Source: Bacteroidia bacterium
GTDB lineage: Bacteria; Bacteroidota; Bacteroidia; AKYH767-A; OLB10
Direction of reading: 5' to 3'
Length of the DNA stretch: 64,000 nucleotides
NCBI GenBank assembly: GCA_037045145.1
Contig: JBAOIA010000012.1
Coordinates: forward strand, 235,210 to 299,209
The notes under the pieces were generated by a model that made no database searches, had not been told where the DNA came from, and was given only the letters and a program-made list of their open reading frames with translations. This document shows, one piece after another, positions 26,371-42,989 of the stretch. How positions within the stretch are numbered: position 1 is the first letter of the stretch; each line of letters starts with the position of its first letter. Position numbers and translations under genes: made by a program.

Positions 26371-26478
26371 TACGCTGCTTTATAGAGGCAGATGATTAAA
26401 AAGAAATCGAGTTTTATTTTTATTTCTGAGGGACGTTATGGTGTATTAGGAGATGTTTTTAATGATTATGACATCCTT

Positions 26479-26515: not shown

Positions 26516-26545
26516 CAGGGAAGCTGCGCTTCCGATAAAAAACAC

Positions 26546-27076
26546 TTACATACTTAACACCTTAATCGGGCTGTTTTCGTTTGCGATGCTTAACCTCCAT
26601 AAATGCGGTTCATCAACAAAACCTGCTTCAACAGGATTACGATGTATGTAATCAACCTTTTGGTCTATGATGCGGTTAGAGTATAATTCAAATGCGTGAT
26701 TATCGTGTTGCCAAAACTGTTTTTCCTGTTTATGTGATGATAGTCTGCCATAAAACTTAAATTCTTTCATCAACCATTCGCGCCTGCTTTCCAGCATATT
26801 TTCTTCTATAGACTGCATTATCGTTTTAGCGGTAAAAGATTTCATATCACGCATTAAATCATTTAAAGTTCCTTCTTCTCTTGATGCAATTATGTGAACA
26901 TGGCTTGGCATGATGCAGTAGCAATATAGTTGCAGCCCTTTGTTTTTTTGGCAGTAAATAATACTGTCTGTAACTATATCCTGATACAATCGCCTTGTGA
27001 AAATATCAACCCAGCCAATGGTTGTAATTGTTACAAAATATAAACCGCCCGGAAAAGTTTTATAAACTTCAGACAT
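26546..27076 (-). CDS. REP-associated tyrosine transposase (RAYT; IS200/IS605-like Y1 HUH transposase)
   Basis: HUH motif SHVHIIA and the catalytic-Tyr helix VDYIHRNPVEAGFV. The start is taken at MSEVYKTFPGGLYFVT. Confidence 0.8.
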   Translation of the reverse strand: MSEVYKTFPGGLYFVTITTIGWVDIFTRRLYQDIVTDSIIYCQKNKGLQLYCYCIMPSHVHIIASREEGTLNDLMRDMKSFTAKTIMQSIEENMLESRREWLMKEFKFYGRLSSHKQEKQFWQHDNHAFELYSNRIIDQKVDYIHRNPVEAGFVDEPHLWRLSIANENSPIKVLSM

Positions 27077-27144
27077 TTGTTGTTTGCATATATGCAAAAA
27101 TGATAATTTTTAGATCAGTATATGATTGAAGTAAAACTTCCAAA

Positions 27145-27181
27145 CACAAAACCCACGAAGCACAGCTTCGCGGGTACGGGG
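27145..27181. repeat. REP-like hairpin, right arm of RAYT unit 1
   Basis: CACAAAACCCACGAAGCACAGCTTCGCGGGTACGGGG, the inverted copy of 26479-26515. Confidence 0.7.
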
Positions 27182-27212
27182 ATGCTGCGCTTATGAATTT
27201 GAGTAATTTCAT
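27182..27212 (-). pseudogene. 31-nt stump of a sixth paralog (start codon plus about 10 codons, MKLLKFISAA..)
   Basis: The segment 27182-27240 parallels the junctions at 30238-30295 and 31795-31852. It has the same 12-nt spacer, the same upstream CTD end, and ATGCTGCGCTTAT identical to the ATG-proximal arm of the SP-2 palindrome. The gene stops abruptly at REP1-R. Confidence 0.7.
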
Positions 27213-27225
27213 TTTACAACAAAAG

Positions 27226-28809
27226 TTATTCAACTATAAATTTCTTTACCAATCTTTCTTTTTCTGTTTGCAACGAAACAATGTACATGCCTTTTGCAAG
27301 TGCGCTGCAATTAATATCCTGTGTAAAATAACCTCCTGCGCTACCCCCAACCCCTGAAGGGGAGAGCCTACGCGCAGTGTTATAAATTAGATTGCCTGTA
27401 ACATCGTATATGGTTAGCGTTATACTTTTTCCTTTTAAATGCTGCGCATTTACAAACAGCTTTTGCCATGAAGCTATGTAGGTAACAAACAACTCCGCTC
27501 CCTTTGCTGATGTTGCAAGAGGTGCTATACCTGTTAGTGTATCACACGCACTACCTGCTATTGCTCCAAGTTCATAATTCGGATTATTAGGCAAGCCCAA
27601 GTATGTTCTCTTACCGCCAAGATAAAAACTGTAAGGCTGAAAATCACATGCCGAACCTAAACTATCAGGCTGGTTTATTACTGACAAGTTCATATTGTAC
27701 ATATTATAGACAGTATCAGGGTATGGGTAAGGAAACATAATTCCATTGTTGTACCAACATGCCAAATAAATTTTGCCATCGGATGCAAGTTTTAAACCAC
27801 CCCCAGCATAATTTGGAAAAGTCAACGCCCACAACGTATCCTTAGTAAGCGAAATATTCGCTGCGTTTAAATCATATTGAAATAAGTAAGTAGTATTTGG
27901 AGATGCGGTTACATACAACTTACTTTCATCGGGTGAAAATTCACAACTCCATGTAAAAGGATAGGGTGGCATACCCGCATCAGGCTCTATAGTAACGGGA
28001 TTATTTAACAATCCTGTGCAACGGTCAAAATCATAAAGTTCTATTAAACCCAACCAATTGGTAAATACCAATTTTTCGCCATCAGGCGAAAAATTGGTAT
28101 GCGCTCCTCCTGTTCTGTTTTGCGAACCAACGGACTGAACGGATAAATTCTGAATTCCGTTAGGAGTTATTAAATAGCTGTACCAATCGTTATTTGAACT
28201 AAATGTGAGTGCATCTGATTTTCTGAATAATAACCACCAATCTCTTCCGTTGCCATGCTTAACAGCATTTAAGCAATCCACTTGTTCAAAGCTTTGCAGT
28301 TGAACATTTTTAACTGTTACAGCACCCAAGCCGTTATTCAATCGCATATCTATTACGCTATAAACAATACCAAATGTATCGGTAATACTTATTGAGAAAA
28401 GGTAATATGTGCTGTCATTTGCAGGATTTGGAATTATAACCAATTCCTGATACCACAACCTGCCTACAATAGAATCCCCATTAAGCATTATATCATGATT
28501 TCTATCAAAAACAAAAGTTGCCATCTCTGTATTAGAAGCATATGCACGCATAGTAGCCGCATAAAACAACAGTTGTCCATTACTATCCGCAATGCTTACA
28601 CAACTGCCTCTTCCGTCAACAGAAGAAGAAAAAGTTACAGGTATTCCGCTTGAAAAATCAATACCAGCACTATCACCAAAACACCATACCGAGTTCCTAT
28701 TTTGTGAAACGCAAAAAAAATGGCAGCAACAAAGTGTTGCTGCCATTATTAAACATTTTAAACTATTTAATAACCACAAACCGTTTTTTAAAATATTCGC
28801 CTGCTTCAT
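27226..28809 (-). CDS. paralog A: T9SS-sorted secreted beta-propeller-like protein (SP-1 signal, CTD variant alpha)
   Basis: Shares the family motifs SVWCFGDS, GRGSC.SI.D..G.LLFY, KHGNGRDWW, FSPDGEKL, YDFDRCTG and LKLA.DGKIYL. The C-terminal about 90 aa has a Por_Secre_tail-like pattern (ITLTIYD..G...INCSALAKGMYIVSLQTEKERLVKKFIVE). The start is uncertain: 28809 overlaps gene B, and the conserved ATG is at 28746. Confidence 0.75.
   Translation of the reverse strand: MKQANILKNGLWLLNSLKCLIMAATLCCCHFFCVSQNRNSVWCFGDSAGIDFSSGIPVTFSSSVDGRGSCVSIADSNGQLLFYAATMRAYASNTEMATFVFDRNHDIMLNGDSIVGRLWYQELVIIPNPANDSTYYLFSISITDTFGIVYSVIDMRLNNGLGAVTVKNVQLQSFEQVDCLNAVKHGNGRDWWLLFRKSDALTFSSNNDWYSYLITPNGIQNLSVQSVGSQNRTGGAHTNFSPDGEKLVFTNWLGLIELYDFDRCTGLLNNPVTIEPDAGMPPYPFTWSCEFSPDESKLYVTASPNTTYLFQYDLNAANISLTKDTLWALTFPNYAGGGLKLASDGKIYLACWYNNGIMFPYPYPDTVYNMYNMNLSVINQPDSLGSACDFQPYSFYLGGKRTYLGLPNNPNYELGAIAGSACDTLTGIAPLATSAKGAELFVTYIASWQKLFVNAQHLKGKSITLTIYDVTGNLIYNTARRLSPSGVGGSAGGYFTQDINCSALAKGMYIVSLQTEKERLVKKFIVE
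28720..28746. repeat. SP-1 perfect palindrome (12-bp arms, 3-nt loop) containing the start ATG of paralog A and followed by U8 on the mRNA
   Basis: ATGGCAGCAACA-AAG-TGTTGCTGCCAT on the plus strand, with A8 at 28713-20 whose last A (28720) is the first stem base, i.e. 7 A beyond the stem. Confidence 0.85.
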
Positions 28810-30268
28810 TCTTTATTCTAATATTATACACTCCGTCAGAAAGCGAAGATACATCAATGCTGCCATTTGTGCCATTAGTTTGTTTTTCTATTATCAGTCG
28901 CCCGTAAATGTCGTAAACAACCAGTTCATTTTTTGCATCGCTTAATCCTGATATAAACAAGATGTTGTTTACAGGGTTGGGGTAAATGTTTATTAAGTTC
29001 CCCTTTGGGGGATTTAGGGGGCTTATGCCTGTCAACGTATCACACGCACTTCCCGCTAACGCCCCCAACTCATAATCCGGATTATTAGGCAAACCTCCGT
29101 AAGTTCTTTTGCCACCAAGATAAAATGAGTAGGGTTGTAAATCACATGCTGAGCCTAAGCTGTTGGGAGAGTTAATGGTGCTTAAATACATATTGGTGTT
29201 ATTATACATAGTGTCGTTATAAGGATAATATTGATAATAACTTGTTGCTAAATAAATTTTACCGTCAGGAGCAAGCTTTAAATCGTCCATAGTTTCATTA
29301 AAATGAGTTTGTCGCAATGTATCAACACTTGCAGCAATATTGGTTGCCGTTAAATCAAACTGATACAGCCGCGATGTATCGGTTGATTGTATGGGTATGC
29401 CGGATATATAAAGTAAATTATCGTCAGGCGAAAAACATGCGCCCCAATAACAACCAAATGGAGCTTGCGTGGGTTCAGGATAAATGGTTTGCAAATTACT
29501 TAATTGCCCTGTGCATCTGTCAAAGTCATACAATTCCAATAAGCCAACCAAGGTATAATATACCATTTTATTGCCATTATTTGAAAATTGAATTCTGCCA
29601 AACCCATGATTAGTTGCAAACCCAATATTTTGCGGCATGGAATCGGAAACACCCGCTGGCGAAATCAAATATTTGTAAAAAGTGTTGTTAATATTATTCC
29701 ACCTCCGGTTAATAATCCACCAGTCTCTTCCGTTGCCATGTTTAATGGCTTTTAATCCGTCAGCGCTTTTGTAATTATGTAACTGCACATTTTTTTGAAT
29801 CACTTCGCCTAATCCGCCATTGGCGCTCATATCAACTATGGAATAATATAAACCTAACTGACTACTACCCGTTACGCCAATGGAAAAAACATAATATTGA
29901 TTGTTGTTAGATGGATTATCAATAATTAAAACTTCATGGTACCAGGCTTGCATAACAATAGAATCACCATTTTGCATGATTTGATGTTGTTTATTCCAAA
30001 TTTCACCATTTTGAAATGGCGGACCTCCGGCAGCCCATGTATCTGTATTATAACCTGCATAAAATAACAGGCTTCCGGCACTGTCGGCAATGCTTGCACA
30101 ACTGCCGCGCGATTTTACCATGCTGCTGCCTGTTATGATATTGGCAGTATCACTAAAATCAACCAGCGCACTGTCGCCAAAGCACCACACGCTGCCCTGC
30201 TTTTGCGCATTTGCAAAATAAGCGCAGCATATAAGAAATGCTGCGCTTATGTATCGGAGTGATTTCAT
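28763..30268 (-). CDS. paralog B: T9SS-sorted beta-propeller-like protein (SP-2 signal, CTD variant beta)
   Basis: 501 aa. The CTD reads IYPNPVNNILFISGL...VVYDIYGRL...IDVSSLSDGVYNIRIKNEAGEYFKKRFVVIK. Confidence 0.8.
   Translation of the reverse strand: MKSLRYISAAFLICCAYFANAQKQGSVWCFGDSALVDFSDTANIITGSSMVKSRGSCASIADSAGSLLFYAGYNTDTWAAGGPPFQNGEIWNKQHQIMQNGDSIVMQAWYHEVLIIDNPSNNNQYYVFSIGVTGSSQLGLYYSIVDMSANGGLGEVIQKNVQLHNYKSADGLKAIKHGNGRDWWIINRRWNNINNTFYKYLISPAGVSDSMPQNIGFATNHGFGRIQFSNNGNKMVYYTLVGLLELYDFDRCTGQLSNLQTIYPEPTQAPFGCYWGACFSPDDNLLYISGIPIQSTDTSRLYQFDLTATNIAASVDTLRQTHFNETMDDLKLAPDGKIYLATSYYQYYPYNDTMYNNTNMYLSTINSPNSLGSACDLQPYSFYLGGKRTYGGLPNNPDYELGALAGSACDTLTGISPLNPPKGNLINIYPNPVNNILFISGLSDAKNELVVYDIYGRLIIEKQTNGTNGSIDVSSLSDGVYNIRIKNEAGEYFKKRFVVIK
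30218..30250. repeat. SP-2 perfect palindrome (13-bp arms, 7-nt loop) inside the signal-peptide codons of paralog B
   Basis: ATAAGCGCAGCAT-ATAAGAA-ATGCTGCGCTTAT. It encodes ISAAFLICCAY on the minus strand. Confidence 0.85.
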
Positions 30269-30280
30269 TTAAAACAAAAG

Positions 30281-31825
30281 TTATTCAACAACAAATTTAT
30301 TTACCAATCTTTCTTTTTCTGTTTGCAACGAAACAATGTACATGCCTTTTGCAAGTGCGCTGCAATTAATATCCTGTGTAAAATAACCTCCTGCGCTACC
30401 CCCAACCCCTGAAGGGGAGAGCGCACGCGCAGTGTTGTAAAATAACTTGCCTGAAATATCGTATATGGTTAGTGTTATATTTTTTCCTTTTAAATGCTGT
30501 GCATTTACAAACAACCTTTGCCATGATGCCATGTAGGTAACAAACAACTCCGCTCTCTTTGCTGATGTTGCAAGAGGTGCTATGCCCGTTAATGTATCGC
30601 ATGGGCTGCCTGATATTGCAGGCAGTGTATAATCAGGATTATTAGGTAAACCTCCGTAAGTTCTTTTGCCACCAAGATAAAATGAGTAGGGTTGTAAATC
30701 ACATGCTGAGCCTAAGCTGTTGGGAGAGTTAATGGTGCTTAAATACATATTGGTATTATTATACATAGTGTCCTTATAAGGATAATATTGATAATAGCTT
30801 GTTGCTAAATAAATTTTACCGTCAGGAGCTAATTTAAGAAATCCCATAGATGCATTAAAATGAGTTTGCCATAATGTATCGGCACTGGCAGCTATATTGG
30901 TTGCCGTTAAATCAAGCTGATACAGCCGCGATGTGTCGGTTGATTGTATGGGTATGCCGGATATATAAAGTAAATTATCGTCAGGCGAAAAACATGCTCC
31001 CCAATACCAGCGTAAGGGAGCCTGTGTGAGTTCAGGGTAAATGGTTTGTAAATTACTTAATTGCCCTGTGCATCTGTCAAAGTCATACAATTCCAATAAG
31101 CCAACCAAGGTATAATATACCATTTTATTGCCATTATTTGAAAATTGAATTCTGCCAAACCCATGATTAGTTGCAAACCCAATATTTTGCGGCATGGAAT
31201 CGGAAACACCCGCTGGCGAAATCAAATATTTGTAAAAAGTGTTGTTAATATTATTCCACCTCCGGTTAATAATCCACCAGTCTCTTCCGTTGCCATGCTT
31301 AATGGCTGTTAATCCGTCAGCGCTTTTGTAATTATGCAACTGTACATTTTTTTGAATCACTTCGCCTAATCCGCCATTAGCGCTCATATCAACTATGGAA
31401 TAATATAAACCTAACTGACTACTACCCGTTACGCCAATGGAAAAAACATAATATTGATTGTTGTTAGATGGATTATCAATAATTAAAACTTCATGGTACC
31501 AGGCTTGCATAACAATAGAATCACCATTTTGCATGATTTGATGTTGTTTATTCCAAATTTCACCATTTTGAAATGGCGGACCTCCGGCAGCCCATGTATC
31601 TGTATTATAACCTGCATAAAATAACAGGCTTCCGGCACTGTCGGCAATGCTTGCACAACTGCCGCGCGATTTTACCATGCTGCTGCCTGTTATGATATTG
31701 GCAGTATCACTAAAATCAACCAGCGCACTGTCGCCAAAGCACCACACGCTGCCTTGCTTTTGTGCATTTGCAAAATAAGCGCAGCATAGTAAAAATGCTG
31801 CGCTTATGTATCGGAGTGATTTCAT
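30281..31825 (-). CDS. paralog C: chimera of a B-like body and a D-like tail (SP-2 signal, CTD variant alpha)
   Basis: 514 aa. It is near-identical to B over the N-terminal region at a 1557-nt offset. The C-terminal about 130 aa are near-identical to D. Confidence 0.8.
   Translation of the reverse strand: MKSLRYISAAFLLCCAYFANAQKQGSVWCFGDSALVDFSDTANIITGSSMVKSRGSCASIADSAGSLLFYAGYNTDTWAAGGPPFQNGEIWNKQHQIMQNGDSIVMQAWYHEVLIIDNPSNNNQYYVFSIGVTGSSQLGLYYSIVDMSANGGLGEVIQKNVQLHNYKSADGLTAIKHGNGRDWWIINRRWNNINNTFYKYLISPAGVSDSMPQNIGFATNHGFGRIQFSNNGNKMVYYTLVGLLELYDFDRCTGQLSNLQTIYPELTQAPLRWYWGACFSPDDNLLYISGIPIQSTDTSRLYQLDLTATNIAASADTLWQTHFNASMGFLKLAPDGKIYLATSYYQYYPYKDTMYNNTNMYLSTINSPNSLGSACDLQPYSFYLGGKRTYGGLPNNPDYTLPAISGSPCDTLTGIAPLATSAKRAELFVTYMASWQRLFVNAQHLKGKNITLTIYDISGKLFYNTARALSPSGVGGSAGGYFTQDINCSALAKGMYIVSLQTEKERLVNKFVVE
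31775..31807. repeat. SP-2 perfect palindrome in paralog C
   Basis: ATAAGCGCAGCAT-AGTAAAA-ATGCTGCGCTTAT. The arms are identical to the B copy and the loop differs at 3 of 7 positions. Confidence 0.85.
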
Positions 31826-31837
31826 TTAAAACAAAAG

Positions 31838-33409
31838 TTATTCAACAACAAATTTATTTACCAATCTTTCTTTTTCTGTTTGCAAAGAAACAATATACAT
31901 GCCTTTTGCAAGTGCGCTGCAATTAATATCCTGTGTAAAATAACCGCCTGCGCTACCCCCAACCCCTGAAGGGGAGAGCACTCGCGCAGTGTTATAAATT
32001 AGCTTGCCTGTAACATCATATAGGGTTAGTGTTATATTTTTCCCTTTTAAATGCTGCGCATTTACAAACAATTTTTGCCATGATGCCATGTAGGTAACAA
32101 ACAACTCCGCTCCCTTTGCTGATGTTGCAAGAGGTGCTATACCCGTTAATGTATCACAGGGACTGCCTGATATTGCAGGCAGTGTATAATCAGGATTATT
32201 GGGTAAACCAAGATATGTTCTTTTGCCTCCGAGATAAAAACTGTAAGGCTGAAAATCACATGCAATTCCTAAACTATCAGGTTGGTTTATTACTGACAAG
32301 TTCATATTGTACATATTATAAACAGTATCCTGATATGGATAAGGAAATTGAACTCCATTATAATATATGCTGGCTAAATAAATTTTATTGTCTGGAGCTA
32401 ATTTTAATCCGCCTCCAGTATAAAGAGGATAGTTGGTTGTCCAAAGTGTATTTTTACTTTGTGAGATATTTGACGCATTTAAGTCATATTGAAATAGGTA
32501 AGTAGTATCATCTGCTGTTGTTACATATAATTTGCTTGCATCGGGTGAGAATTCACAACTCCAAGTATATGGCACTGATGGCAATGCTTCCGGTTCAATG
32601 GTAACAGGATTGCTCAATAATCCTGAACAACGGTCAAAATCATATAGCTCAACCAACCCAATCAAATTGGTAAATACCAATTTTTCGCCTGATGGCGAAA
32701 AATTGGTATATCCTGAGTTGGTTTTGTTTAATGAACCTATTGACTGAATGGAAAAATTCTGAACGCTGACAGGTGTAATTAAATAAGAATACCAGTCATT
32801 GTTGCCATTTGATAAAGAACCTGCTTTTCTGAATAATACCCACCAGTCCCTTCCATTGCCATGCTTAACGGCATTTAAGCAATCAACCTGCTCAAAGCTT
32901 TGCAGTTGAACATTTTTAACCGTCACAGCCCCCAAGCCGTTATTCAGCCGCATATCAATTATGCTGTAATATAAGCCATATATGCTCGTTACTCCAATAG
33001 AAAATAAGTAATAGGTGCTGTCATTAGCCGGATTGGGTACTATTACCAATTCCTGATACCAACCTCTGCCAACAATATTATTTCCGTTTTGCATTACCTG
33101 ATGAGTTGTATCAAAAACTAATGTGGTGTTGCCACTTATTGTGGCTCTTGTTTCGGCATAGAAAAGAAGTTTACCATTTTCATTTGCAATTGATGCGCAT
33201 GAACCTCTGGTATCTAATCCACATGAGCCAACTATAATATTTGAAGTATCACTGAAGTCAATTAAAGCGCTGTCGCCAAAGCACCACACCGAATTACGGT
33301 TTTGCGCATAGGAAAAGAAATGGCAGCAACAGAGTGTTGCTGCCATTAATGAAAATTTTAAATTATTTAATAACCACAAACCGTTTTTTAAAATATTCGC
33401 CTGCTTCAT
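31838..33409 (-). CDS. paralog D: T9SS-sorted beta-propeller-like protein (SP-1 signal, CTD variant alpha)
   Basis: 523 aa with the same family motifs. The start is uncertain: 33409 overlaps E, and the conserved ATG is at 33346. Confidence 0.75.
   Translation of the reverse strand: MKQANILKNGLWLLNNLKFSLMAATLCCCHFFSYAQNRNSVWCFGDSALIDFSDTSNIIVGSCGLDTRGSCASIANENGKLLFYAETRATISGNTTLVFDTTHQVMQNGNNIVGRGWYQELVIVPNPANDSTYYLFSIGVTSIYGLYYSIIDMRLNNGLGAVTVKNVQLQSFEQVDCLNAVKHGNGRDWWVLFRKAGSLSNGNNDWYSYLITPVSVQNFSIQSIGSLNKTNSGYTNFSPSGEKLVFTNLIGLVELYDFDRCSGLLSNPVTIEPEALPSVPYTWSCEFSPDASKLYVTTADDTTYLFQYDLNASNISQSKNTLWTTNYPLYTGGGLKLAPDNKIYLASIYYNGVQFPYPYQDTVYNMYNMNLSVINQPDSLGIACDFQPYSFYLGGKRTYLGLPNNPDYTLPAISGSPCDTLTGIAPLATSAKGAELFVTYMASWQKLFVNAQHLKGKNITLTLYDVTGKLIYNTARVLSPSGVGGSAGGYFTQDINCSALAKGMYIVSLQTEKERLVNKFVVE
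33320..33346. repeat. SP-1 perfect palindrome containing the conserved ATG of paralog D
   Basis: ATGGCAGCAACA-GAG-TGTTGCTGCCAT. It is followed on the mRNA by UUCUUUUCC. Confidence 0.85.
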
Positions 33410-34865
33410 TCTTTATTCTAAGGTTATACACTCCGTCAGAAAGCGAAGATACATCAATGCTGCCCGCTGCAGAAGCATTCTTCTTTAATAATAATCTGCC
33501 GTAAATATCATACACCTCTATTTCATTTTTGCCTTCAGGCATTCCGCTAACATACAATGTGCTGTTGGCGGGGTTGGGAAATATCCTCACCCCACCCCTC
33601 TCCAAAGGAGAGGGAGCTATGCCTGTAAGTGTATCACACACACTACCCGCTACCGCCTCCAACTCATAATCAGGATTATTAGGTAAACCAAGATATGTTC
33701 TTTTGCCTCCGAGATAAAAACTGTACGGCTGAAAATCACATGCTGCGCCTAAGCTATCAGGTTGGTTAATTACTGATAAGTTCATATTGTACATGTTGTA
33801 AACACTATCCCTGTAAGGATAATAATTAGAGGCATTATAATACACATTACTCAAATAGATTTTGTTATCAGGAGCCAACTTTAATCCTCCTATTGCATAA
33901 GGAAATAAATTAAATGACCATAGAGTATCTTTGCTTCCGGGAATATTGGGTGCGTTTAAATCGTATTGAAATAAATATGAAGTAGTTTGATTGGTGGTAA
34001 CATATAACTTACTTTCATCAGGAGAAAACTCACAACTCCAAATAAATGGATAAGGAGGGTTACCTAAATCAGGTTCTATAGTAACGGGATTATTTAACAA
34101 TCCTGTGCAACGATCAAAATCATAAACTTCAATCAAACCCAACCAATTGGTAAATACCAATTTTTCGCCATCAGGCGAAAAATTGGTATGCGCTCCTCCT
34201 GTTCTGTTTTGCGAACCAACGGACTGAACGGATAAATTCTGAATTCCGTTAGGAGTTATTAAATAGCTGTACCAATCGTTATTTGAACTAAATGTGAGTG
34301 CATCTGATTTTCTGAATATTAGCCACCAATCTCTTCCGTTACCATGTTTAACGGCATTTAAGCAATCCACTTGTTCAAAGCTTTGCAGTTGTATATTCTT
34401 AGCAGTAACTGCTCCTAATCCACCATTCTGTTTCATATCTATGATGCTGTAAACAAGTCCGTTATTACCAGTGACATTTATTGAAAAAAGATAATATACA
34501 CTGTCGTTGGCAGGATTAGGAACAATTACCAATTCCTGATACCAACCTTCTCCAACAATAGAATCTCCATCTTGCATTACTGATCCTGTTGAATTAAAAA
34601 CAAAGGTTGAATTATCAATACTTATGGCATACTTGTACATTGTTGCTGCATAAAAAAGTAAATTCCCGTTATTGTCTGAAATGCTGACACAGCTTCCCCG
34701 ACTATCCATTCCTGATTGAAAAGTAACAGGTAATCCCGAACCAAAATCTATTCCCGCACTATCGCCAAAGCACCATACGCTATTTCTATTTTGCGCATAA
34801 GAAAAAAAATGGCAGCAACAAAATGTTGCTGCCATTAGTAAGCATTTTAAATTAAGTGATTTCAA
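33363..34865 (-). CDS. paralog E: T9SS-sorted beta-propeller-like protein (SP-1 signal, CTD variant beta)
   Basis: 500 aa. The ORF track uses a TTG start at 34865, and the conserved ATG is at 34835. Confidence 0.75.
   Translation of the reverse strand: MKSLNLKCLLMAATFCCCHFFSYAQNRNSVWCFGDSAGIDFGSGLPVTFQSGMDSRGSCVSISDNNGNLLFYAATMYKYAISIDNSTFVFNSTGSVMQDGDSIVGEGWYQELVIVPNPANDSVYYLFSINVTGNNGLVYSIIDMKQNGGLGAVTAKNIQLQSFEQVDCLNAVKHGNGRDWWLIFRKSDALTFSSNNDWYSYLITPNGIQNLSVQSVGSQNRTGGAHTNFSPDGEKLVFTNWLGLIEVYDFDRCTGLLNNPVTIEPDLGNPPYPFIWSCEFSPDESKLYVTTNQTTSYLFQYDLNAPNIPGSKDTLWSFNLFPYAIGGLKLAPDNKIYLSNVYYNASNYYPYRDSVYNMYNMNLSVINQPDSLGAACDFQPYSFYLGGKRTYLGLPNNPDYELEAVAGSVCDTLTGIAPSPLERGGVRIFPNPANSTLYVSGMPEGKNEIEVYDIYGRLLLKKNASAAGSIDVSSLSDGVYNLRIKNEAGEYFKKRFVVIK
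34809..34835. repeat. SP-1 perfect palindrome containing the conserved ATG of paralog E
   Basis: ATGGCAGCAACA-AAA-TGTTGCTGCCAT. It is followed on the mRNA by U7CUU (A8 at 34802-34809, whose last A is the first stem base). Confidence 0.85.
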
Positions 34866-34866: not shown

Positions 34867-37800
34867 TTATTTAATTACAATAAATCTCGTTCTAAAATAC
34901 TCATCTGTCTCATTTCGTATCCTCAGATTATAAATACCTTCTGCCAGCGAAGATACGTCAATTACGCCACTGCTGCTGTTATTTTGCTTTGTAAATAATA
35001 ACCTGCCATAAAGGTCGTAAACCTGCATTTCATTTTTACCATCACTCATTCCTGTTACCAACAGCAAGCTGTTGGCTGGGTTAGGTTGTATGCGTACCTT
35101 ATCAGCCGGCAGTGTTTTTTCAGGCAATTCATTCTGAGTATGACTGCCACCCTGCCGCAATGCGGGCAATTCAGGAGAGTAATATTCCTTACCGAGCAAG
35201 GCTGCCGCACTGTAAACGCTCTTGCCCGCTATGAGCCAGTGCTGCGCCAGCAGGCTTTCCAACGCTGTGGTGTCTGTTGCATCAAGCGTATCACCTGCTG
35301 CCAGCTTGCCGATAATAAGGCTGTTGATGAGCTTATAGTTGGCTTCCATATCATTGCTTTCGGTAATGCTGCTGTTAATGGTTGCAGCAGCAGCAATGTC
35401 ATCGGCTTTAATAGCCTGCTTTACGGAGTCAAACTTGCCTATGTTGGCATTGAGCATGACATTGTAAAATGCGCGGAATGATGAGTCAGCCGCGCTGCCT
35501 GTGGTGAGCAGTGTGGTGTCAGCGCTGAGCCGTTTGAACAGGGTTTCTTTAGCAAGGTATTTAGCCTCATCTGCATAACTATCGTACACAGCAGAATCAC
35601 CCACTACGGGACCAAATTCTTTATCTCTGTCAATATCGACATTGGTAAATAACGCGGTTGCACAATCAGTATTTGAACTTGCTTCATTATCATCCGCTAA
35701 AATAACATTCCCATTATAAGGATCAGGAGTAAATAAATTATTTACGTCTGTTTCATCTCCTTGAAAATACCATTTAAAAGGTGATGCTACCTGCAAGTAT
35801 CCATCCACTTTCATTAAAGCATTGTTTGAAGTAATCCATTGATTATCCCATGCGTTATTTGCAGTTCCCTGAGGTGAAAATTGTGCGTTTTCATACCAAA
35901 TACCTTTGTTATAATCAGTCATCACATTATTTTTCAGCCGCGTGGTTTGGCAATCGCCCTCAAAGCGCAGGGCATAGCCGAGGCGTGTAATGCCGTTGCC
36001 GCATATATTCAGGTTTTGAGAATTGTCGGCAGCAATGCCGCGTATTTTATCAGCATTATAAGCAACAACGCTGTTGTTATAAATGTCGTTCGCTTTAATA
36101 ACAGCATCGTTGCAGTCCTGTATAAATATGCCTGAATACATTTGGCTTGTTTCTAATCCGTCATCAGCCTCCATAGCAATGGTGTTGGGCAAAAGGCTGC
36201 TGCCGTCCGTTCCAACGCTTATGCCCGGTGTGTTGTTGGCATATATTCCTATTCGCGCTCCGGTTATGGAGTTGTCTGTAATAGTTACTGCGCTGTTTGC
36301 GCCCTGCTCATATAATACCCTTATGCCATAATCGCCAGTTGCATAAATGTTATTATGGTCAACGGAAACGGCATTGCCTGTGGTGGCTGTGCTGTTTATA
36401 TAAACGGCAGAAGTAGGAACAGTTAAATCGGCAGGTGTTTTTACATGCAAATCGTTACCGGTAATCTGAATAGTGTTGCTGCCGCATTTTTCAACCAAAA
36501 TGTTGTTTTTGCTGTTGCTCATGGCATTCTGGTTGCATTTAACAAAGCTGCCTGCAAGCTTTCCGTTGCAGTTAAACATCCTGTACCCTGCTTCGGCACA
36601 GTTGTTTATTGTGTTTTGTTCCATCCTCAACTGCTCAGTTACATTGCCAATGCCATACCTCATGTTTTCAAATGTGTTGTGCAAAATAATTTTATCATCA
36701 TTGGCATTGGCGGCTTCGCCCAATATTAAAGCTCCGTAGCCGGTGGGCGAGGTTATAAGCGGATAAGCCAGTAACCGCGCCTGTGACACATCGGGTACAC
36801 GCCCCGGTGCATCTTTAAAATAATTGTACCGGATGTTATAGTCAACGGGGTTTACTAATCTTATACCATAGTCCATGTCAGAAAAAACATTTTGCTCATT
36901 TGCTGCGCCAATGGTTAAATCGGATGGCGCGAGGAGCAGAATATGGTTAAACGATTTGTCGCCATATTCATAAACCGCTCTTCCGCTGCACCTGAAAATG
37001 CAATTATGTATTTGCATATTGCTGTAATCCGTTACGCCCGCCCCTAATTCAACTATGCCGTAAAAATTATGGTCGAATAAGGTATTGGATAAATTAATAT
37101 TTGTAATGGATGAGGAATTGCCGTTAATTGCAATAGCTGCTTCGGCATCTTCCATATCGGAATTGGTTATTTCCAGCTCGGAAGTGCCGTCAGCAAGCAC
37201 AATGCCTTTCCATAACACATTACAACCGAAAAAACGGCTGTCTTGTACATCTAGCTTTTTGCCTGCATCAACATATATTCCCACTCCCTGGCTGCAAATT
37301 ACTGTTTTGTTGTTAAATAAATTAAAATCGGCATCTACCGTAAAATCATCCGTAAGATATACCACATCAGGAGTTATAACGCTGATTGCGCTTGCAATGT
37401 TATTTCCACTATTAATAGTAAATGTGCTGCTGACGCACAATGTTGAAGATAATGTGCCGCACACATCGGGCTGCGGCTGCAAAGCAAGGTTTTTGTCTTC
37501 GGCAATAACTATTTGGTCAACTAACACGTTTCCGTTAATGCTGTTAATGGATAATGTATATTCCTGATTATCGAGTTGGCTCAATAAAATAGGAGATAAA
37601 CTGTTTGGCAAAAACCGATACCAATTCCAGTCACTGCTGCTAATACAGCTTAACGTACAAACGGGAGTACCGTCCAATTTAATTTCAAGCTGGCTGCCTG
37701 AACCGGCATCTTTGGCTTTTATCCAAACATAATAATCGGTATCATCAACTCTGGGGTGAAATTTATATTCAACAGGGGCACTTCCTGCTGCAAAAGAAAT

Positions 37801-39540
37801 ATAAGTGGTAAAGTTTCTATAATCACCAGAAGATGTTCCACCCGGTACAGATGTAACACGGGTTACATTTGCAGGTGCAGAAACATTATCCCACACCTCG
37901 GCTTCAAACCAAAAATCTTTGCTCCAGCGGTCAGGGTGCTTATATTCATGCCATGCATCAAGCTGGTAGAATACAGGAGGATTAACAGAAGCATCGAAAA
38001 TGTAAGTGCTGCCCTGCCTGCGAACGTTAAACTGCAAGTCGTAAGTGGATGTGCTTCCGCCTGCATTATCAGCCAAATGTATTTTGGCTGCTTTTTCCAA
38101 AGGAGCATTGCCTTTTACATTGGAGTAAGGTTGAACGGTACCGGTGATGACGTATTTTTCTATAGCATTATCTTTTCTGGAAAGCACCAACACATCAGGT
38201 GAACTAGATTTAAAGGCGTACATCATATCGGGCGCAGCAGAATTACCCGGCTCTTGTAATCTGTCACCTTCAAGCAAATGTCCATCTATAATTAAATCAG
38301 CAAATCGGTCCGCTATTGCATGTGCGTAAGCAGGTGTTGCAGCTTGCCAAACATAACCTTTAGGTTCAACAACATCTGGAAGTGCAAAAACATGAAAGAA
38401 ATCAGATCCAAGAACAGAGACTGCCTTTAACAATCCAAGCCATTGCCCGGGTCTTAAATTATCTTCTTCATTATGAGCCCATCCGGGTGCAACAAATGGC
38501 GCATTTATATAATCCCCGTTATTTAATTCTTCTTTTTTGCTTCTGGTCAGCCATAAAAATCCGTGATCTGCAGAGCGAGATTCTCTAAGCCAGTCTTCTG
38601 GTCTTCTTGGATAAAAGTCAGGCGTAGCAAGCCTGACATTTACGGGCGTTGAACCGTATTGTACAACCGATTGGGTTTCTCTTAATTCATTATAGCGGTA
38701 TCTTGCTTGATCGTAATTGATTCCGTTATTAGTTACTAACTTCCAATGACCATCAACAGCATAATTTAGAAATATGGTTCCATCAGAAACAAGTTTTGAA
38801 ATATTCATAAAATTGTCCCTATAATCATTGTCAAGTTCTTTTCCCTTTGTTGCCATAAATTCTTCCCATTTTAATGGTGTATCAGCATTTCCAGATAAAA
38901 ATGTAATGTAAGCAGATGACAATGGAGTAGAAGATAATGTATTTCTTAAATTATAAATTGCTTTATGAGAAACCTCATTATTTTCAGAAATTACTTTGAC
39001 TTTTGCAGAAATTCCGTTTAAAATAGTTTGTAAATAATCATTCTGCAATAATCCATCTGTTGCATACACATCTCTTTTGTTTGAAAAAATATTTCCTGTT
39101 CCTGTTCCAAATGCCGGGCTGTAATTCCAAAAATGTGTACCACTGTTGTTTCCTTCAAAATTATAAAACATACTTGACTTATAAAGATAAAAATCCTCAT
39201 CACTAACGGTAACAGTACCAAAATTTGTAAAGCTTGTAGCGTTTTGTTCCCTGATCCAGGAGTTGGTAATTCCAGGAGGCACTTTATTAACAAGAGATGA
39301 TGGCAATGAATGTCCAAGATCACTTGTACTATAACTTAATTGAGCACGATTTGTTATAATTCCTATTTCATCAGTTGAATTAAAATTTGTTGCTGCATAA
39401 TTAATATATTGTTGATTTTCGGGATCAAGATATGTTCTCGTGTTTTCACAAATATTGAATAAATAATACCAATTTTTATACAGTTCGAGCTGTACATTTA
39501 AGGATCTTGTTCCATCATGTTCTCCAAGATAGTTACTCCC
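34867..39540 (-). pseudogene. C-terminal fragment (1,557 codons) of a giant T9SS-sorted protein split by RAYT unit 2
   Basis: The frame is open from 39540 down to the stop at 34867. The ORF track reports only 34867..39306 from an internal TTG. A TAG contributed by the inserted element (39541-43) lies immediately upstream. The fragment contains PbH1-type beta-helix repeats, a CBM-like segment and the CTD IQPNPANSLLLVTG...IDVSSLAEGIYNLRIRNETDEYFRTRFIVIK. Confidence 0.7.
39505..39540. repeat. 36-bp direct repeat, left copy (flanks RAYT unit 2)
   Basis: TCTTGTTCCATCATGTTCTCCAAGATAGTTACTCCC, identical to 40192-40227. Confidence 0.9.
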
Positions 39541-39569
39541 CTACTGGCGCAAGTCTTCAGACTTGTGCC
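39541..39569. repeat. REP-like hairpin, left arm of RAYT unit 2
   Basis: GGCGCAAGTC-TTCA-GACTTGTGCC (one G-T pair). Confidence 0.7.
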
Positions 39570-39601
39570 ATCCTGTCATTAAAAATTGCACATTTGCAAC
39601 C

Positions 39602-40153
39602 ATGAGTTCCAAGTATAAGTTTCACACTCCTGATGCCATATATTTTGTTACTTTTTCGGTTATAAACTGGATTGATGTTTTTACAAGAAACGGTTATAAA
39701 GATATTTTAATTGACAGTATAAAACATTGCCAAAAAGAAAAAGGCTTAGTGGTTCATGCTTGGGTTATTATGACCAATCATGTACACATGATTATTTCTA
39801 AAAACGGAACATGTGTGCTGCCTGATATAATGCGCGACCTTAAAAAATTTACAGCCTATAAAATTACAGGGGCAATTATGGAAAATTCTCAGGAAAGCAG
39901 GCGCGAATGGATGTTTAATCTTTTTAAACGGGCTGGTGAAAGAAATTCCAACAATACAAACTGGCAGTTTTGGCAACAGGATAATCATCCTGTTGAATTA
40001 ACTGATGCAAGAATGCAAGAACAAAAATTAAATTACATACATGAAAATCCTGTGCGGGCAGGATTTGTTTATAACCCTGAAGACTATGTGTACAGTAGCG
40101 CAACGGATTATTGCGGCAGCAAAGGGCTTATTGACTTAGTGCTGCTTGAATGA
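39602..40153 (+). CDS. REP-associated tyrosine transposase (RAYT) paralog
   Basis: MSSKYKFHTPDAIYFVT..., HUH motif NHVHMII, Tyr helix LNYIHENPVRAGFV. It is about half identical to the RAYT at 26546 by eye. The ATG at 39602 is preferred because the TTG at 39563 lies inside the hairpin. Confidence 0.8.
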   Translation: MSSKYKFHTPDAIYFVTFSVINWIDVFTRNGYKDILIDSIKHCQKEKGLVVHAWVIMTNHVHMIISKNGTCVLPDIMRDLKKFTAYKITGAIMENSQESRREWMFNLFKRAGERNSNNTNWQFWQQDNHPVELTDARMQEQKLNYIHENPVRAGFVYNPEDYVYSSATDYCGSKGLIDLVLLE

Positions 40154-40159
40154 TAGTAG

Positions 40160-40191
40160 GGCGCAAGTCTGAAGACTTGCGCCAGTGGGGG
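40160..40191. repeat. REP-like hairpin, right arm of RAYT unit 2
   Basis: GGCGCAAGTC-TGAA-GACTTGCGCC, a perfect 10-bp stem. Confidence 0.7.
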
Positions 40192-40227
40192 TCTTGTTCC
40201 ATCATGTTCTCCAAGATAGTTACTCCC
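40192..40227. repeat. 36-bp direct repeat, right copy
   Basis: Identical to 39505-39540. Confidence 0.9.
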
Positions 40228-42989
40228 TAACCAATTAAAATTTCTCCTTAATGTTCTATTAGATTTGTATCTTGGTAAAGGATATGCTTTCAGTTGTTCA
40301 ATAACATTTTTAACTTCACTGTAATTTCCTGTTCCGGGAGCGTATCCAAACGGATAATCGTTTTCATCATACTGTCCGGCATTTGTAAATGTAAGTGGAC
40401 TATAGGGCGAAGTGTTTTGGGTGAAAACATTTAAAGAAGTGGTATTTAATCCATGTTGTTCAATTGTTTTATCACACAATTCATTTTGTAAATAAATAGC
40501 CACCTGATCGAAATAACCACCCATGTTCGTATGCTCACTACTGGTTTTTAAATTTAAATCCATCCCGGTTCCATTTATAAAAAGGCCTGTTATTGATGCA
40601 TTAATAATATCTTTACTAAAACCTTCATTGAGTTTTCCATCAATCCATATTTGCTTTTGATAATGATGAGCAGCAATTTTTTTATGAACAAAACAGAAGT
40701 AATGCCATGAGTCGTTAGTATAATAACCAAAAGATTTTTCATTAATTCCATCGAAAGGAATAAAAAAACTTTCATAAGGTATTGCTGTCGATCCGGTTAT
40801 TCCTGAATAATCGGTACTAAAACTGATACCGGTTTGATCAATTGATGCGCTGTGTACGCCATTTTGTATTCTAAAAAATCCGGCAGAAGCTCTGTTTGCA
40901 AAATTTCCATCAAACCTCACATACATTTCAACTGCAAAATATTCAGATGTTTGATCAATTAACACATTGGGTACATATAAATCTGTTCCGTTATCGCTAA
41001 GTAATGAATAACCTGTATTTGGAATTCCGGAATTACTTACCAGTGTATTAGTTCCACTTGAAGACAGTGTCGTAGAAAATATGGCAGGGCTGGAACTAGC
41101 AAAGTTATTGGCATCAAAATTATAATAGTAATCAGGTGCAATTGCACCTGAAATACATGATGCAAACACAAATGCCGTGTATCCTAAAGTAAAGTTACCA
41201 AAGCTGTTTAGGTTGCTGGCATTTGTTGCCGAACCAACAGTTCTGTCTCCGGATAAGGCAACTGTTCCCAAATCACTCCATTGCGTACCGTTCCATCTTG
41301 CCAATTTAACTTTTGAGCTGTCAAAAACACTGCTGTATCTATTCCAAGATAAGGTAACTTTAACCTGTGAGCTGCCTGTATTCCGCGCTAAATTCCAATA
41401 GTTGCTTCCATTTATATAATCAATGCCTGATTGCCGTGCATTTGGGTCGTTTGGTAATGCTCCTGCAAAATACTCTCCCGTAAACGCATCGGTTGTGTTT
41501 GAAGGTGCAGAAATTCCAATTGCCCTGCAGCTGTTTCCCTTTCCTGTTGGAAACACAAATGCGCTGTTGCCGATTTTCTTAACAGGCCCGTCAATATAAC
41601 TGCTGTCGCTTGCTCCGCTCACAGTGCCACCGTTGTTTATGGTAAGCAAATTGCTGCTTGTGGTGGTGAGCGTGCCTTTTGCAAACGTTACCGTTCCGCT
41701 TACAGCCAATGCAGTTGCCAGTGTTGCACTGCCTCCACTTTTGTTCAGCATCAAGTTTTTCACAAGCGTGTTGCTGTGAAAGCTTAATAATTGTGTTCCG
41801 CTTCCTGCAAGGCACAAGGTGCCTGTGCCTGCATTAAAGGTGGTATTGTTTGCTGTGGTTATGTTTCCGTAAAACGAACTTACATCACCACCATAACACA
41901 CCCTCAGCTCGCGTGAGCCGCCAAAGGTGGCATCGGCATAGTAGGTATTGGAAGTATCGGCATCAAGCCGCAGGTTACCCGCGCTGGCATTGTTGGTAAA
42001 GGTGGCATTGCCATAAAACTTATTGCCGCCATACCAACTGCTGCTGCCGCTGCCTGTGGCGGTAAACGATGCCGTTCCGTTAAAATTACAGTTTTTAAAT
42101 AACAGCGAGTTGGATGTAATGCTGAAATCACCTCCGAATGTAGCTCCTGTTATGCTTGGCAATGCCGATCCTGTAAAGGTGAGGCTTATGGCAGTGCTGC
42201 CATCCTGATAAAAATTAGTGGCATTAAAATCACCTGCTGAAAAACCTCCGCTGCCTATGCTTATGGTATGCCCTGCTGTAAGCGTATCGTTACCCAGCAG
42301 AATTCCTCCTGCTCCGGTATTTATTAAAACCATATCGCCATTGAACACATTAATGCCCGCTCCTGCAAAGGTTATTTCTTTTGTTCCTTTGTTATGTATG
42401 GTTACCTTACCGTTAAAGCGGTGCCCTGTGCTGTTGTTCATTACCCACACTCCTGCACCTGTATAATTATGATAGAGGTAAACGCTGTCGTTAAACACCG
42501 CTCCACCGCTTCCTGTGCCGGGTACATCGGTAATGGTTTCAAAATAGCAATAATTATTAAACGTAGCGGCATTGAGATCAATACGGCTCACCACTGCATT
42601 AATCACCACATTAAACGTGGTGCTGCCAAATGTCATTTGCGTGCCTGTAAGCTCAAGCCTTCCATTGCTGATAGTGCCTCCACTAAATACGCTAGATCCG
42701 GAGTTCAATACCAATGTATCGCCATTGCAATTTAAGGTTCCGCTATGCATGGTCATTCCGCTAAGTGTTTTTTTGCCGGGCAGGGTGGGATTGAAAGTAG
42801 CACTATAAATATGCACATAATCTCCACTTCCCGGCACGCCTGCAGGCGACCAGTTGGATGTGGTGTTCCAGGCTGTGCTTGTGCCGCCTGTCCAGGTGTA
42901 GGTTGTTGCTAACGACAGCAGCCCGCTCAGTATAAGCGCTGCCGTTAAAATCAGTTGGATATATTTTTTCATGATAGATAGTTTAAGAA

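What the first reader, a model, noticed from the sequence alone, without database searches (positions are those of the whole stretch)
39505..40227. A 651-bp RAYT/REP unit flanked by an exact 36-bp direct repeat splits an approximately 2,470-codon T9SS gene in frame
The 36-mer TCTTGTTCCATCATGTTCTCCAAGATAGTTACTCCC occurs at 39505-39540 and again at 40192-40227, immediately outside the inverted REP-like hairpins that bracket the RAYT gene. Both copies are read in the same frame (GSNYLGEHDGTR). One is the end of the upstream ORF (42972..40192). The other is the beginning of a frame that I checked codon by codon to be open from 39540 to the stop at 34867. Deleting the unit plus one repeat copy rejoins ...NFNWLGSNYLGEHDGTR|SLNVQLELYKNWYYLF... 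into a single ORF of 927 + 1545 codons with an N-terminal signal peptide and a C-terminal T9SS sorting domain. As it stands, the N-fragment reads through the REP hairpin and stops at 40108. The C-fragment is preceded by a TAG supplied by the element. IS200/IS605-type and RAYT elements are not known to make target duplications, so a 36-bp exact duplication is unexpected. It also provides a ready substrate for precise excision by slippage or recombination, which would make this a reversible on/off switch of a giant surface protein. The RAYT gene is antisense to the host gene.
Basis: partly seen in the sequence, partly recalled or inferred. Interest (0 to 1): 0.8.

Follow-up and report, generated by a model that had tools for sequence, protein, structure and literature searches.

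The report
Mobile RAYT transposon splitting a secretion gene
A small, still-active transposon of the RAYT type has landed inside a giant secreted-surface-protein gene of an uncultured Bacteroidota bacterium and knocked it out; the odd 36-base duplication on either side is real, but it looks like a one-off by-product, not a built-in on/off switch.

Summary
An exact 36-mer (39505-39540 and 40192-40227) brackets a 651-bp unit. The unit carries a 183-aa RAYT-type Y1/HUH transposase between inverted hairpin ends. Removing the unit plus one repeat restores a 2,472-codon T9SS cargo ORF. Close orthologs (about 91% identical, 2,481 and 2,499 aa) are intact and carry the 36-mer once.

- The unit is a multi-copy, IS-like element. 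Its 645-bp core is identical apart from one base in more than 12 junction contexts from many metagenomes. In every context I checked (nine junctions) it lies antisense next to long open frames, among T9SS cargo genes.
- No other left-end/right-end junction pair shows a flanking repeat.
- Both element ends show nested series of junctions into the same flank. This points to end-anchored rearrangement.
- Each junction of the 36-bp repeat is confirmed in independent assemblies. The two are seen together on one molecule only in this window.

My reading is a recent knock-out insertion plus a secondary 33-36-bp flank duplication made by replication, repair or recombination at the element end. A true long target duplication is not excluded, because this is the only near-intact insertion site available. 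No evidence supports a reversible switch. It is a new variant of a known kind, of moderate interest.

The parts
39505..39540 (.). Left copy of the 36-bp direct repeat. It is host sequence and forms the start of the open C-fragment frame (GSNYLGEHDGTR on the minus strand).
   Evidence: The same junction (36-mer followed by the left end) is independently present in L049.
40192..40227 (.). Right copy of the 36-bp direct repeat. It is host sequence and forms the end of the N-fragment's native sequence.
   Evidence: The same junction (right end followed by the 36-mer) is present in L021, L022 and L023.
39541..40191 (+). The 651-bp mobile unit: left end, RAYT gene, right end. Its termini are C(1-5)TACTGG... 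and ...CCAGTG(4-8).
   Evidence: The 645-bp core is identical except for 1 nt in L004-L013. Further copies are in L015-L020 and L049-L056.
39538..39583 (.). Left terminal inverted-repeat arm, including the left-end hairpin at 39546-39569 (stem with a G-T pair on the + strand).
   Evidence: MFE -10 kcal/mol, z = -4.6.
40146..40191 (.). Right terminal inverted-repeat arm, including the right-end hairpin at 40160-40183, preceded by GTAG. The G at 40163 is private to this copy; all other copies have A.
39602..40153 (+). RAYT (TnpA_REP-type Y1/HUH transposase), 183 aa. HUH motif is H60-V61-H62, the WQ motif is at W124-Q125, and the catalytic-type Tyr is in Y145-IHENP.
   Evidence: The motifs match subclass 2.6 of PMC6006769.
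40108..43023 (-). N-terminal fragment of the giant T9SS gene. The likely true start is 42972 (MKKYIQ...). It reads 28 codons into the element and stops at 40108-40110.
   Evidence: The exact 971-aa product is found on 6 further contigs.
34867..39540 (-). C-terminal fragment of the giant T9SS gene (1,557 codons open). There is no start codon before 39306. The T9SS sorting domain lies at about 34876-35085.
39541..39543 (-). TAG stop, supplied by the element's left end, that closes the frame just upstream of the C-fragment.

Best explanation
SHOWN. The 651-bp unit is an autonomous insertion sequence of the IS200/IS605 superfamily. Its transposase belongs to the RAYT (TnpA_REP) branch, and its ends are inverted hairpins. 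It is present in several near-identical copies per genome in a lineage of uncultured Bacteroidota. One copy inserted into a 2,472-codon T9SS cargo gene and inactivated it. The N-fragment keeps the leader but loses the sorting domain. The C-fragment has the sorting domain but no start or leader.

INFERRED. The 33-36-bp direct repeat is not a regular target-site duplication of this element and not a regulatory device. It is a one-off duplication of flanking DNA that arose at or after insertion through replication, repair or recombination at the element's ends. Three concrete routes fit the junctions:
(a) The element re-inserts a few tens of bases away on one sister strand, and unequal exchange within the 651-bp element follows.
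(b) The transposase nicks at the left end, and the flank's 3' end is extended by about 36 nt across the base of the looped-out element before re-joining.
(c) A template switch uses the CCC microhomology between the host sequence ...CTCCC and the element's C-run.

The same end-anchored lability, acting in the other direction, would give the nested junction series seen at both ends of other copies.
For: Identity of the element: Y1_Tnp, REP_Tyr_transpos, HUH aligned to ISDra2 TnpA; significant end hairpins.

Mobility and copy number. The identical 183-aa protein is listed in 203 blocks of the collection and on 147 contigs. Two copies lie on single contigs in L008, L011 and L050, and on two contigs of GCA_046329975.1. 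There are at least 13 distinct left-end flanks and about 10 right-end flanks.

Insertion into an intact gene. The empty site in L014 has one 36-mer and contiguous, near-identical flanks. The intact orthologs P0123 (2,481 aa) and P0126 (2,499 aa) read ...NFNWLGSNYLGEHDGTKSLNVQ... once. P0002 and P0007 are full-length distant homologs.

The duplication is real. The right-end-to-36-mer junction, carrying the private G SNP, is in L021-L023. The 36-mer-to-left-end junction is in L049.

The duplication is not a family trait. An all-against-all comparison of left-end and right-end flanks finds only this one overlap. There are no host-derived repeats around 15 relatives or around RAYT-2.

End-anchored lability. 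The left end is joined to the same host gene at three positions, 25 and 347 bp apart (L010, L015, L011). The right end is joined to the RAYT-2 gene at three positions, about window 26831, 26992 and 27098. Three right ends lie in tandem in L007/L009.

Microhomology. Host CTCCC, GTA(A/G)CC and GTAACC meet the element's CCC at three of four junctions where the uninterrupted host sequence is known.
Against: This is the only copy whose two flanks come from the same place. The other copies therefore cannot say whether a fresh insertion normally carries a duplication, so n = 1 for that question.

Flank pairings across a 651-bp repeat in short-read assemblies are unreliable. One left flank is paired with three different right flanks. 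Only junction-level statements are safe, and 'constant flank on the other side' in the nested series is weaker than it looks.

No allele with a simple insertion at either edge of the 36-mer was found. In particular, no N-fragment ends ...NFNWL plus the element tail in the cluster. Route (a) predicts such alleles existed at least transiently.

The three routes cannot be told apart from sequence. The cis arrangement of both junctions rests on this one assembly.
Confidence: 0.55

Rival explanations
1. It is a true, long target-site duplication. Because the two ends are inverted copies of one hairpin substrate, the RAYT could act on both DNA strands. It would join each 5' element end to a target 3'-OH at nicks staggered by about 36 nt, and gap filling would then duplicate the 36 bp.
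For: The ends are symmetric 46-nt inverted repeats, unlike the asymmetric ends of IS608-type elements. This is the only insertion with both flanks from one locus, and it does have the repeat. The two copies are identical to each other while differing at 2 positions from the empty-site allele, so the duplication is young.
Against: No Y1/HUH transposon is known to do this (PMC5027513; PMC6006769). No other junction pair shows any overlap. Relatives at 85-92% identity in a closed genome, and RAYT-2 in this window, lack flanking repeats. Part of the repeat (CCC) is ambiguous with the element end.
Confidence: 0.13
2. It is an assembly chimera. Two different element copies or alleles exist, one carrying the junction 'host...36-mer|left end' and another carrying 'right end|36-mer...host'. 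The assembler threaded them through one collapsed 651-bp repeat.
For: Short-read assemblies break or mis-pair at this element. In L049 the left junction is followed by an element with the A variant and an unrelated right flank, whereas the right junction always carries the G variant. The cis arrangement is seen only in the window.
Against: The window comes from a 1.13-Mb contig, which is hard to obtain from short reads in a genome with many identical 651-bp repeats and paralog arrays. Even if this explanation were true, the two junctions would still overlap by 36 bp on the uninterrupted gene, so the offset would still need a biological cause. L049's structure is equally explained by later recombination with another copy.
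Confidence: 0.13
3. It is a programmed or selected reversible ON/OFF switch of the giant surface protein. Either recombination or slippage between the 36-bp repeats, or transposase-mediated precise excision (leaving an in-frame 12-aa duplication), would restore the gene at useful frequency.
For: Both routes would restore an open frame, since the 36-bp repeat and the 651-bp unit are each multiples of 3. The element encodes an intact transposase. Surface proteins are typical targets of phase variation (general knowledge).
Against: No restored or footprint allele of this strain type is in the protein cluster. The arrangement is not repeated at any other copy. The same gene is also broken by unrelated lesions elsewhere. 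The in-frame property has a 1-in-3 chance expectation. There is no dedicated regulator.
Confidence: 0.05
4. The host allele already carried a 36-bp tandem duplication (12 aa), and the element happened to insert exactly at the joint between the two copies.
For: It would need no unusual transposase chemistry. The joint ...CTCCC|TCTTG... would end in a C-run, like most left flanks.
Against: No allele with a tandem duplication is seen. It requires an insertion at exactly one of 72 positions. L015 shows that the terminal Cs belong to the element, so a C-run in the left flank is not evidence of a target-site preference.
Confidence: 0.04

Closest known systems
IS200/IS605-family single-strand transposons (IS608, ISDra2)
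   Same: It has a small Y1/HUH transposase with the HUH motif aligned to ISDra2 TnpA. It has a Pfam Y1_Tnp hit, subterminal hairpins at both ends, and multiple identical copies. Its constant orientation relative to neighbouring genes is what one would expect from strand-specific insertion at replication forks (PMC5027513).
   Different: The transposase scores as RAYT, not IS200 (27.4 bits against a cut-off of 55). The ends are inverted repeats of each other rather than two different hairpins on one strand. There is no conserved target tetra- or pentanucleotide next to the left end. This copy has a 33-36-bp flanking duplication.
REPtrons: RAYT/TnpA_REP genes flanked by inverted REP sequences (E. 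coli, Pseudomonas; PMC3116915, PMC5581495, PMC6006769)
   Same: It has an NCBIfam REP_Tyr_transpos hit above the cut-off. The gene is bracketed by inverted G+C-rich hairpins, with GTAG at the foot of the right hairpin. The motifs NHVH / WQ / YIHENP fit the Bacteroidetes subclass 2.6. A roughly 150-bp derivative with only the two ends exists in L002, and solitary hairpins occur in other genomes.
   Different: RAYTs are described as single-copy, vertically inherited and no longer copying themselves (PMC5581495). Here the whole unit is multi-copy and nearly identical between copies, and this copy sits inside a coding sequence. No dispersed REP population is seen in the 64-kb window.
TIRtrons/TIRYT (tyrosine transposase genes flanked by terminal inverted repeats; PMC3733652)
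   Same: A Y1 transposase gene lies between terminal inverted repeats that include homopolymer G/C runs.
   Different: The published consensus is GGGGWSAS at the 5' end. Here the polarity is CCCC...GGGG, and the repeats contain a REP-like hairpin. Mobility and duplications were not reported for TIRtrons.
Target duplication during integration by another HUH nuclease (AAV Rep at AAVS1), and long variable duplications of some IS4-group elements (IS1634). Both are recalled from my own knowledge and were not checked here.
   Same: They show that nick-initiated, replication-coupled integration can duplicate tens of bases of target.
   Different: They involve different enzymes and hosts. They are cited only as a mechanistic precedent, not as relatives.

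Membership tests
Y1/HUH transposase (IS200/IS605 superfamily) | Y1_Tnp fold with an HUH motif and a catalytic tyrosine | tested here: met
   Pfam PF01797 scores 32.9 bits against a cut-off of 23. H60-V61-H62 aligns to the HUH of ISDra2 TnpA 2XM3. Y145 lies in YIHENP (by inspection).
Y1/HUH transposase (IS200/IS605 superfamily) | Subterminal hairpins at both ends | tested here: met
Y1/HUH transposase (IS200/IS605 superfamily) | Insertion without target duplication, 3' of a fixed short target motif | tested here: not met
   This copy has a 33-36-bp duplication. The left flanks share no motif once the element-derived C-run is removed.
Y1/HUH transposase (IS200/IS605 superfamily) | IS200-type transposase (NCBIfam transpos_IS200) | tested here: not met
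   27.4 bits against a cut-off of 55.
RAYT / TnpA_REP (REPtron) | RAYT-type sequence | tested here: met
   NCBIfam NF047646 scores 107.7 bits against a cut-off of 80. The motifs fit subclass 2.6 of PMC6006769.
RAYT / TnpA_REP (REPtron) | Gene flanked by REP hairpins in inverted orientation | tested here: met
   GTAG lies at the 5' foot of the right hairpin only.
RAYT / TnpA_REP (REPtron) | Single copy per genome, with no near-identical duplicates | tested here: not met
   Two copies lie on one contig (L008, L011, L050) and on two contigs of one assembly. The cores are identical.
RAYT / TnpA_REP (REPtron) | Many dispersed cognate REP/REPIN copies in the same genome | tested here: inconclusive
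   There are none besides the two ends in the 64 kb. One derivative with only the two ends and a few solitary hairpins occur in other genomes. The whole genome is not available.
Phase-variation switch by reversible insertion/excision | Both states present in one lineage, and recurrence of the arrangement | tested here: not met
   There is no intact 'GTR'-type allele among the cluster members. No other copy has flanking repeats. Read-level heterogeneity could not be tested.
T9SS cargo protein (host gene) | C-terminal type A sorting domain and an N-terminal signal peptide | tested here: met
   Por_Secre_tail scores 44.3 bits and TIGR04183 scores 39.6 bits at the C-terminus. The signal peptide is judged by inspection only (MKKYIQLILTAALILSGLLSLA).

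The most novel reading that the evidence does not exclude
The RAYT of this element, acting on symmetric hairpin ends, makes staggered nicks on the two strands or processes its covalent end intermediates. Fresh insertions would then carry long (about 36-bp) target duplications, and resident copies would shed or gain flanking DNA one-sidedly. That would be a transposition outcome not described for any Y1/HUH transposon. It would also be the first natural system in which a RAYT unit is caught moving. As a side effect, the flanking repeats would allow the interrupted surface-protein gene to be restored exactly.
Probability: 0.13. Interest if true: 0.7.

Novelty: new variant of a known kind. Interest (0 to 1): 0.45.

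Why it matters
RAYTs are the textbook example of a 'domesticated', single-copy transposase whose own movement has never been observed. Their biochemistry is known, but their biology is largely inferred.

Here a RAYT-class gene with its two hairpin ends behaves as an ordinary, currently active insertion sequence:
- Its copies are identical.
- This copy sits inside a coding sequence, and other copies abut long open frames in T9SS cargo arrays.
- Truncated and tandem derivatives exist.
- Both ends show nested series of junctions.

That offers a natural system for asking how RAYT-type enzymes choose targets and join ends. It also shows these elements reshaping the large arrays of T9SS cargo genes in environmental Bacteroidota.

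The 36-bp duplication is the only near-intact insertion footprint available for the element. If it proved typical, it would change the accepted picture of single-strand 'peel and paste' transposition. If it is a by-product, as I think, the finding is a well-documented gene knock-out by a new IS.

Tried and rejected
1. Source genome and other copies. An exact 27-nt hairpin scan of species-representative genomes found only solitary hairpins in other taxa, not the source genome.

2. C-fragment side in other assemblies. Exact look-ups with starts at 39306 and 39171 found nothing. A neighbouring gene gave only a 3-kb contig. The C-fragment is apparently not called as a protein anywhere. L049, reached through cluster member P0130, finally supplied that junction.

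3. A 'CC^' target rule for the left flank. All of the first 8 left flanks appeared to end in CC. The rule was rejected because in L015 the CCC is not host sequence: the host continues with AAAA in L011.

4. A hairpin within the 36-mer (ATCTTG/CAAGAT) as a target structure. It is no better than shuffled sequence (z = +0.3 and -0.5).

5. Direct repeats around relatives and around RAYT-2. None are host-derived. The hits in L036 and L038 are REP hairpins themselves.

6. GC skew to infer the replication direction, and hence the active strand. It is weakly negative on the + strand but confounded by gene orientation, so it is inconclusive.

7. T9SS genes as a family-wide target. The three relatives in the closed genome CP064983.1 sit next to LptF/G, TatC and other ordinary genes (one of the three also has a T9SS cargo gene on one side), so the association with T9SS arrays is local.

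8. 'Flank shuffling' as proof of recombination. I downgraded this after seeing one left flank paired with three right flanks in short SPAdes contigs.
Full report
OBSERVATION

The 36-mer occurs exactly twice, at 39505-39540 and 40192-40227. No further match exists at up to three mismatches, and none is expected by chance. The 651 bp between the copies carry one ORF, 39602-40153 on the + strand, 183 aa. It hits Pfam Y1_Tnp (32.9 bits, cut-off 23) and NCBIfam REP_Tyr_transpos (107.7 bits, cut-off 80). It falls below the IS200 model (27.4 bits, cut-off 55). Its HUH motif (H60-V61-H62) aligns with that of ISDra2 TnpA. The motifs NHVH, WQ and YIHENP match the Bacteroidetes subclass 2.6 of Quentin et al. 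(PMC6006769).

The unit ends in 46-nt inverted repeats. Each contains an 11-bp-stem hairpin that folds far better than shuffled sequence.

On the minus strand the host gene's N-fragment reads through the right copy of the 36-mer into the element and stops at 40108. The C-fragment frame is open from the left copy down to 34867 and is closed upstream by a TAG made of element bases. Removing 39541-40227 yields one ORF of 2,472 codons with a T9SS type A sorting domain at the end. All factual parts of the finding are therefore confirmed. The one caveat is that three C at the edge of the left copy could equally be the element's own C-run.

THE INSERTION AND THE DUPLICATION ARE REAL

A homology search with the rejoined protein found a 91%-identical ortholog (P0001) and full-length distant homologs (P0002, 2,505 aa; P0007, 2,450 aa) that span the junction. 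The DNA of P0001 (L014) has the 36-mer once, with two substitutions, and both flanks run on exactly as in the window. Members of the same 90% cluster include two intact genes, P0123 (2,481 aa) and P0126 (2,499 aa). Both read ...NFNWLGSNYLGEHDGTKSLNVQ... once. The two copies in the window are identical to each other and differ from that allele at the same two positions. The duplication is therefore younger than the split between the alleles.

THE UNIT IS A MULTI-COPY MOBILE ELEMENT

The identical 183-aa protein is listed in 203 blocks of the assembly collection and on 147 contigs. In ten loci fetched at first, the 645-bp core differs from the window's copy at a single base. The window has G at 40163 and all the others have A.

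Two copies lie on one contig in L008, L011 and L050, and on two contigs of one assembly. With further look-ups I collected about 13 different left-end flanks and about 10 right-end flanks.

At eight of the nine junctions I checked, a long open frame on the opposite strand abuts at least one end of the element (at six of them, both ends); at the L015 junction the longest abutting frame is 94 aa, with only about 120 bp of flank held on one side. The neighbourhood is made of T9SS cargo genes.

Derivatives also exist:
- a copy truncated at the right end (L008);
- a full copy followed by a 50-bp right-end fragment and a partial copy, giving three right ends in tandem (L007/L009);
- a roughly 150-bp derivative with only the two ends, in another MAG (L002).

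Relatives at 85-92% protein identity occur three times in the closed MAG chromosome CP064983.1, in ordinary intergenic contexts.

This is the behaviour of an insertion sequence. It is not that of a RAYT as usually described, which is single-copy, has no near-identical duplicates and no longer copies itself (PMC5581495). The window also holds a second, 49%-identical RAYT unit with its own 55-nt inverted ends, at 26478-27182.

IS THE 36-bp REPEAT A PROPERTY OF THE ELEMENT?

An all-against-all comparison of the collected left-end and right-end flanks finds only the window's pair overlapping. Relatives and RAYT-2 have no host-derived flanking repeat.

This test is weaker than it looks, for two reasons. 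First, wherever I could place the other copies' flanks, the left and right flanks come from different genes:
- In L004 the left flank is the last 623 codons of this same giant gene (window 36343-36738), but the right flank is a 500-aa-family paralog.
- In L005 the left flank is a giant-gene paralog.
- In L010, L011 and L015 the right flank is the N-terminal part of RAYT-2.

Second, short-read assemblies mis-pair flanks across the 651-bp repeat. One left flank appears with three right flanks. So the window holds the only near-intact insertion site available, and n = 1 for the question of what a fresh insertion looks like.

INDEPENDENT SUPPORT FOR EACH JUNCTION

The 971-aa N-fragment with its element-encoded tail is found on six more contigs from several samples. 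These contigs carry right end|36-mer|host with the private G variant. They stop exactly one k-mer (141, 127 or 55 nt) beyond that SNP, which shows that they break because of the repeat.

The other junction, host|36-mer|left end, is present and base-identical in L049. There the segment is inverted relative to the N-fragment, and the right end (A variant) abuts a different T9SS gene.

Both junctions are therefore real. Their presence on one molecule rests on the window, which is part of a 1.13-Mb contig.

END-ANCHORED LABILITY

At the level of junctions, which is robust to mis-assembly, both ends show nested series:
- The left end is joined to one host gene at three positions 25 and 347 bp apart (L010, L015, L011).
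- The right end is joined to RAYT-2 at about window 26831, 26992 and 27098, always keeping the same side of RAYT-2.
- None of the left flanks collected carries the missing half of RAYT-2.

One-sided deletions next to an intact element end explain this more simply than many independent insertions do.

In three of the four junctions where the uninterrupted host sequence is known, the host ends in CC or CCC where it meets the element's C-run. In the fourth (L015) it does not, which also shows that the Cs belong to the element.

INTERPRETATION

I take the feature to be a recent knock-out insertion of an IS-like RAYT element. The 33-36-bp duplication was then generated by the same kind of end-anchored event, acting in the duplicative direction. 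Three routes fit:
- local re-insertion on one sister strand followed by unequal exchange within the element;
- extension of the nicked flank across the base of the extruded element before re-joining;
- a microhomology-guided template switch.

These steps are inferred. Sequence alone cannot separate them.

A true long TSD from staggered nicking of both strands is not excluded. The element's symmetric ends make it conceivable, but it has no precedent among Y1 elements and no second example here. An assembly chimera of two copies remains possible. Even then, the two junctions would still be offset by 36 bp on the uninterrupted gene.

The switch idea has nothing in its favour beyond feasibility:
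- No restored or footprint allele of this strain type is among the cluster members.
- The arrangement is not repeated elsewhere.
- The same gene is broken by other lesions in other genomes: P0130/L049 at aa 770, P0127/P0128, P0124/P0125, and P0001/L014.

COMPARISON WITH KNOWN SYSTEMS

The element works like an IS200/IS605-type single-strand transposon and is built like a REPtron/TIRtron (PMC3733652, PMC6006769). It fails two features of the IS200/IS605 description: no duplication, and a fixed target motif. It also fails one feature of the RAYT description: single copy. I therefore rate it a new variant of a known kind. Interest is moderate. It would be considerably higher if the duplication proved to be the rule for fresh insertions.

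Noticed in passing
window 26478-27182: This is a second RAYT unit (RAYT-2). Its ORF is 26546-27097 on the minus strand, 183 aa, 49% identical to the first, with a Pfam Y1_Tnp hit. It has its own 55-nt inverted ends, CCCCGTACC...GGTACGGGG, built around a different hairpin (CGAAGC-TGTG-CTTCG). It has no flanking direct repeat. In many other contigs the first element's right end abuts truncated RAYT-2 at three nested positions.
   Followed up: partly
window 27226-34865 (minus strand): A tandem array of five paralogous T9SS cargo genes of about 500-527 aa lies directly downstream of the giant gene. Some have overlapping ends. The copy number of the equivalent array differs between assemblies (L004, L007, L009).
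   Followed up: no
L049 9840-10938 (ERZ27275110 k141_59531): The giant gene's N-fragment is joined at codon ~770, through an 8-nt overlap, to window 39201-40195 in inverted orientation. The joined piece is the C-fragment start, the 36-mer and the whole element. The element's right end then abuts the sorting domain of another T9SS gene. This is either a real inversion-type rearrangement or a chimeric contig.
   Followed up: partly
L007/L009 5540-6067: A full element is followed by a 50-bp right-end fragment and then by element positions 222-651. That gives three right ends in tandem before the flank resumes.
   Followed up: partly
L002 2985-3126; L001 6938-6964; L003 114-140 and 1419-1443: A roughly 150-bp derivative with only the left and right ends (MITE/REPIN-like) lies next to a RAYT-2-like terminus in another Bacteroidetes MAG. 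Solitary copies of the same 27-nt hairpin occur in Balneolaceae and Algoriphagus MAGs.
   Followed up: no
L025 ~2880-2920; L062-L065 ~2420-2460: In a related element variant, a 19-nt palindrome (CCCCGATAACTATCGGGAT) sits inside the loop of the left-end hairpin. L057 has a comparable insert in the right-end hairpin. These are small palindromic insertions within the transposase's own recognition hairpins.
   Followed up: no
proteins P0124/P0125, P0127/P0128, P0130, P0001 (cluster of the giant gene): The same giant T9SS gene is interrupted at different places in different genomes (about aa 420, 770, 1700 and 1970). P0126 is a mosaic of the window-type leader and the other allele. The gene seems prone to inactivation and recombination.
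   Followed up: partly
element termini in all copies: The homopolymer runs at the ends vary in length: 2-5 C at the left and 4-8 G at the right (for example 7 versus 8 G in L011 versus L010). I cannot tell whether this is biological slippage, junction microhomology or sequencing error.
   Followed up: no
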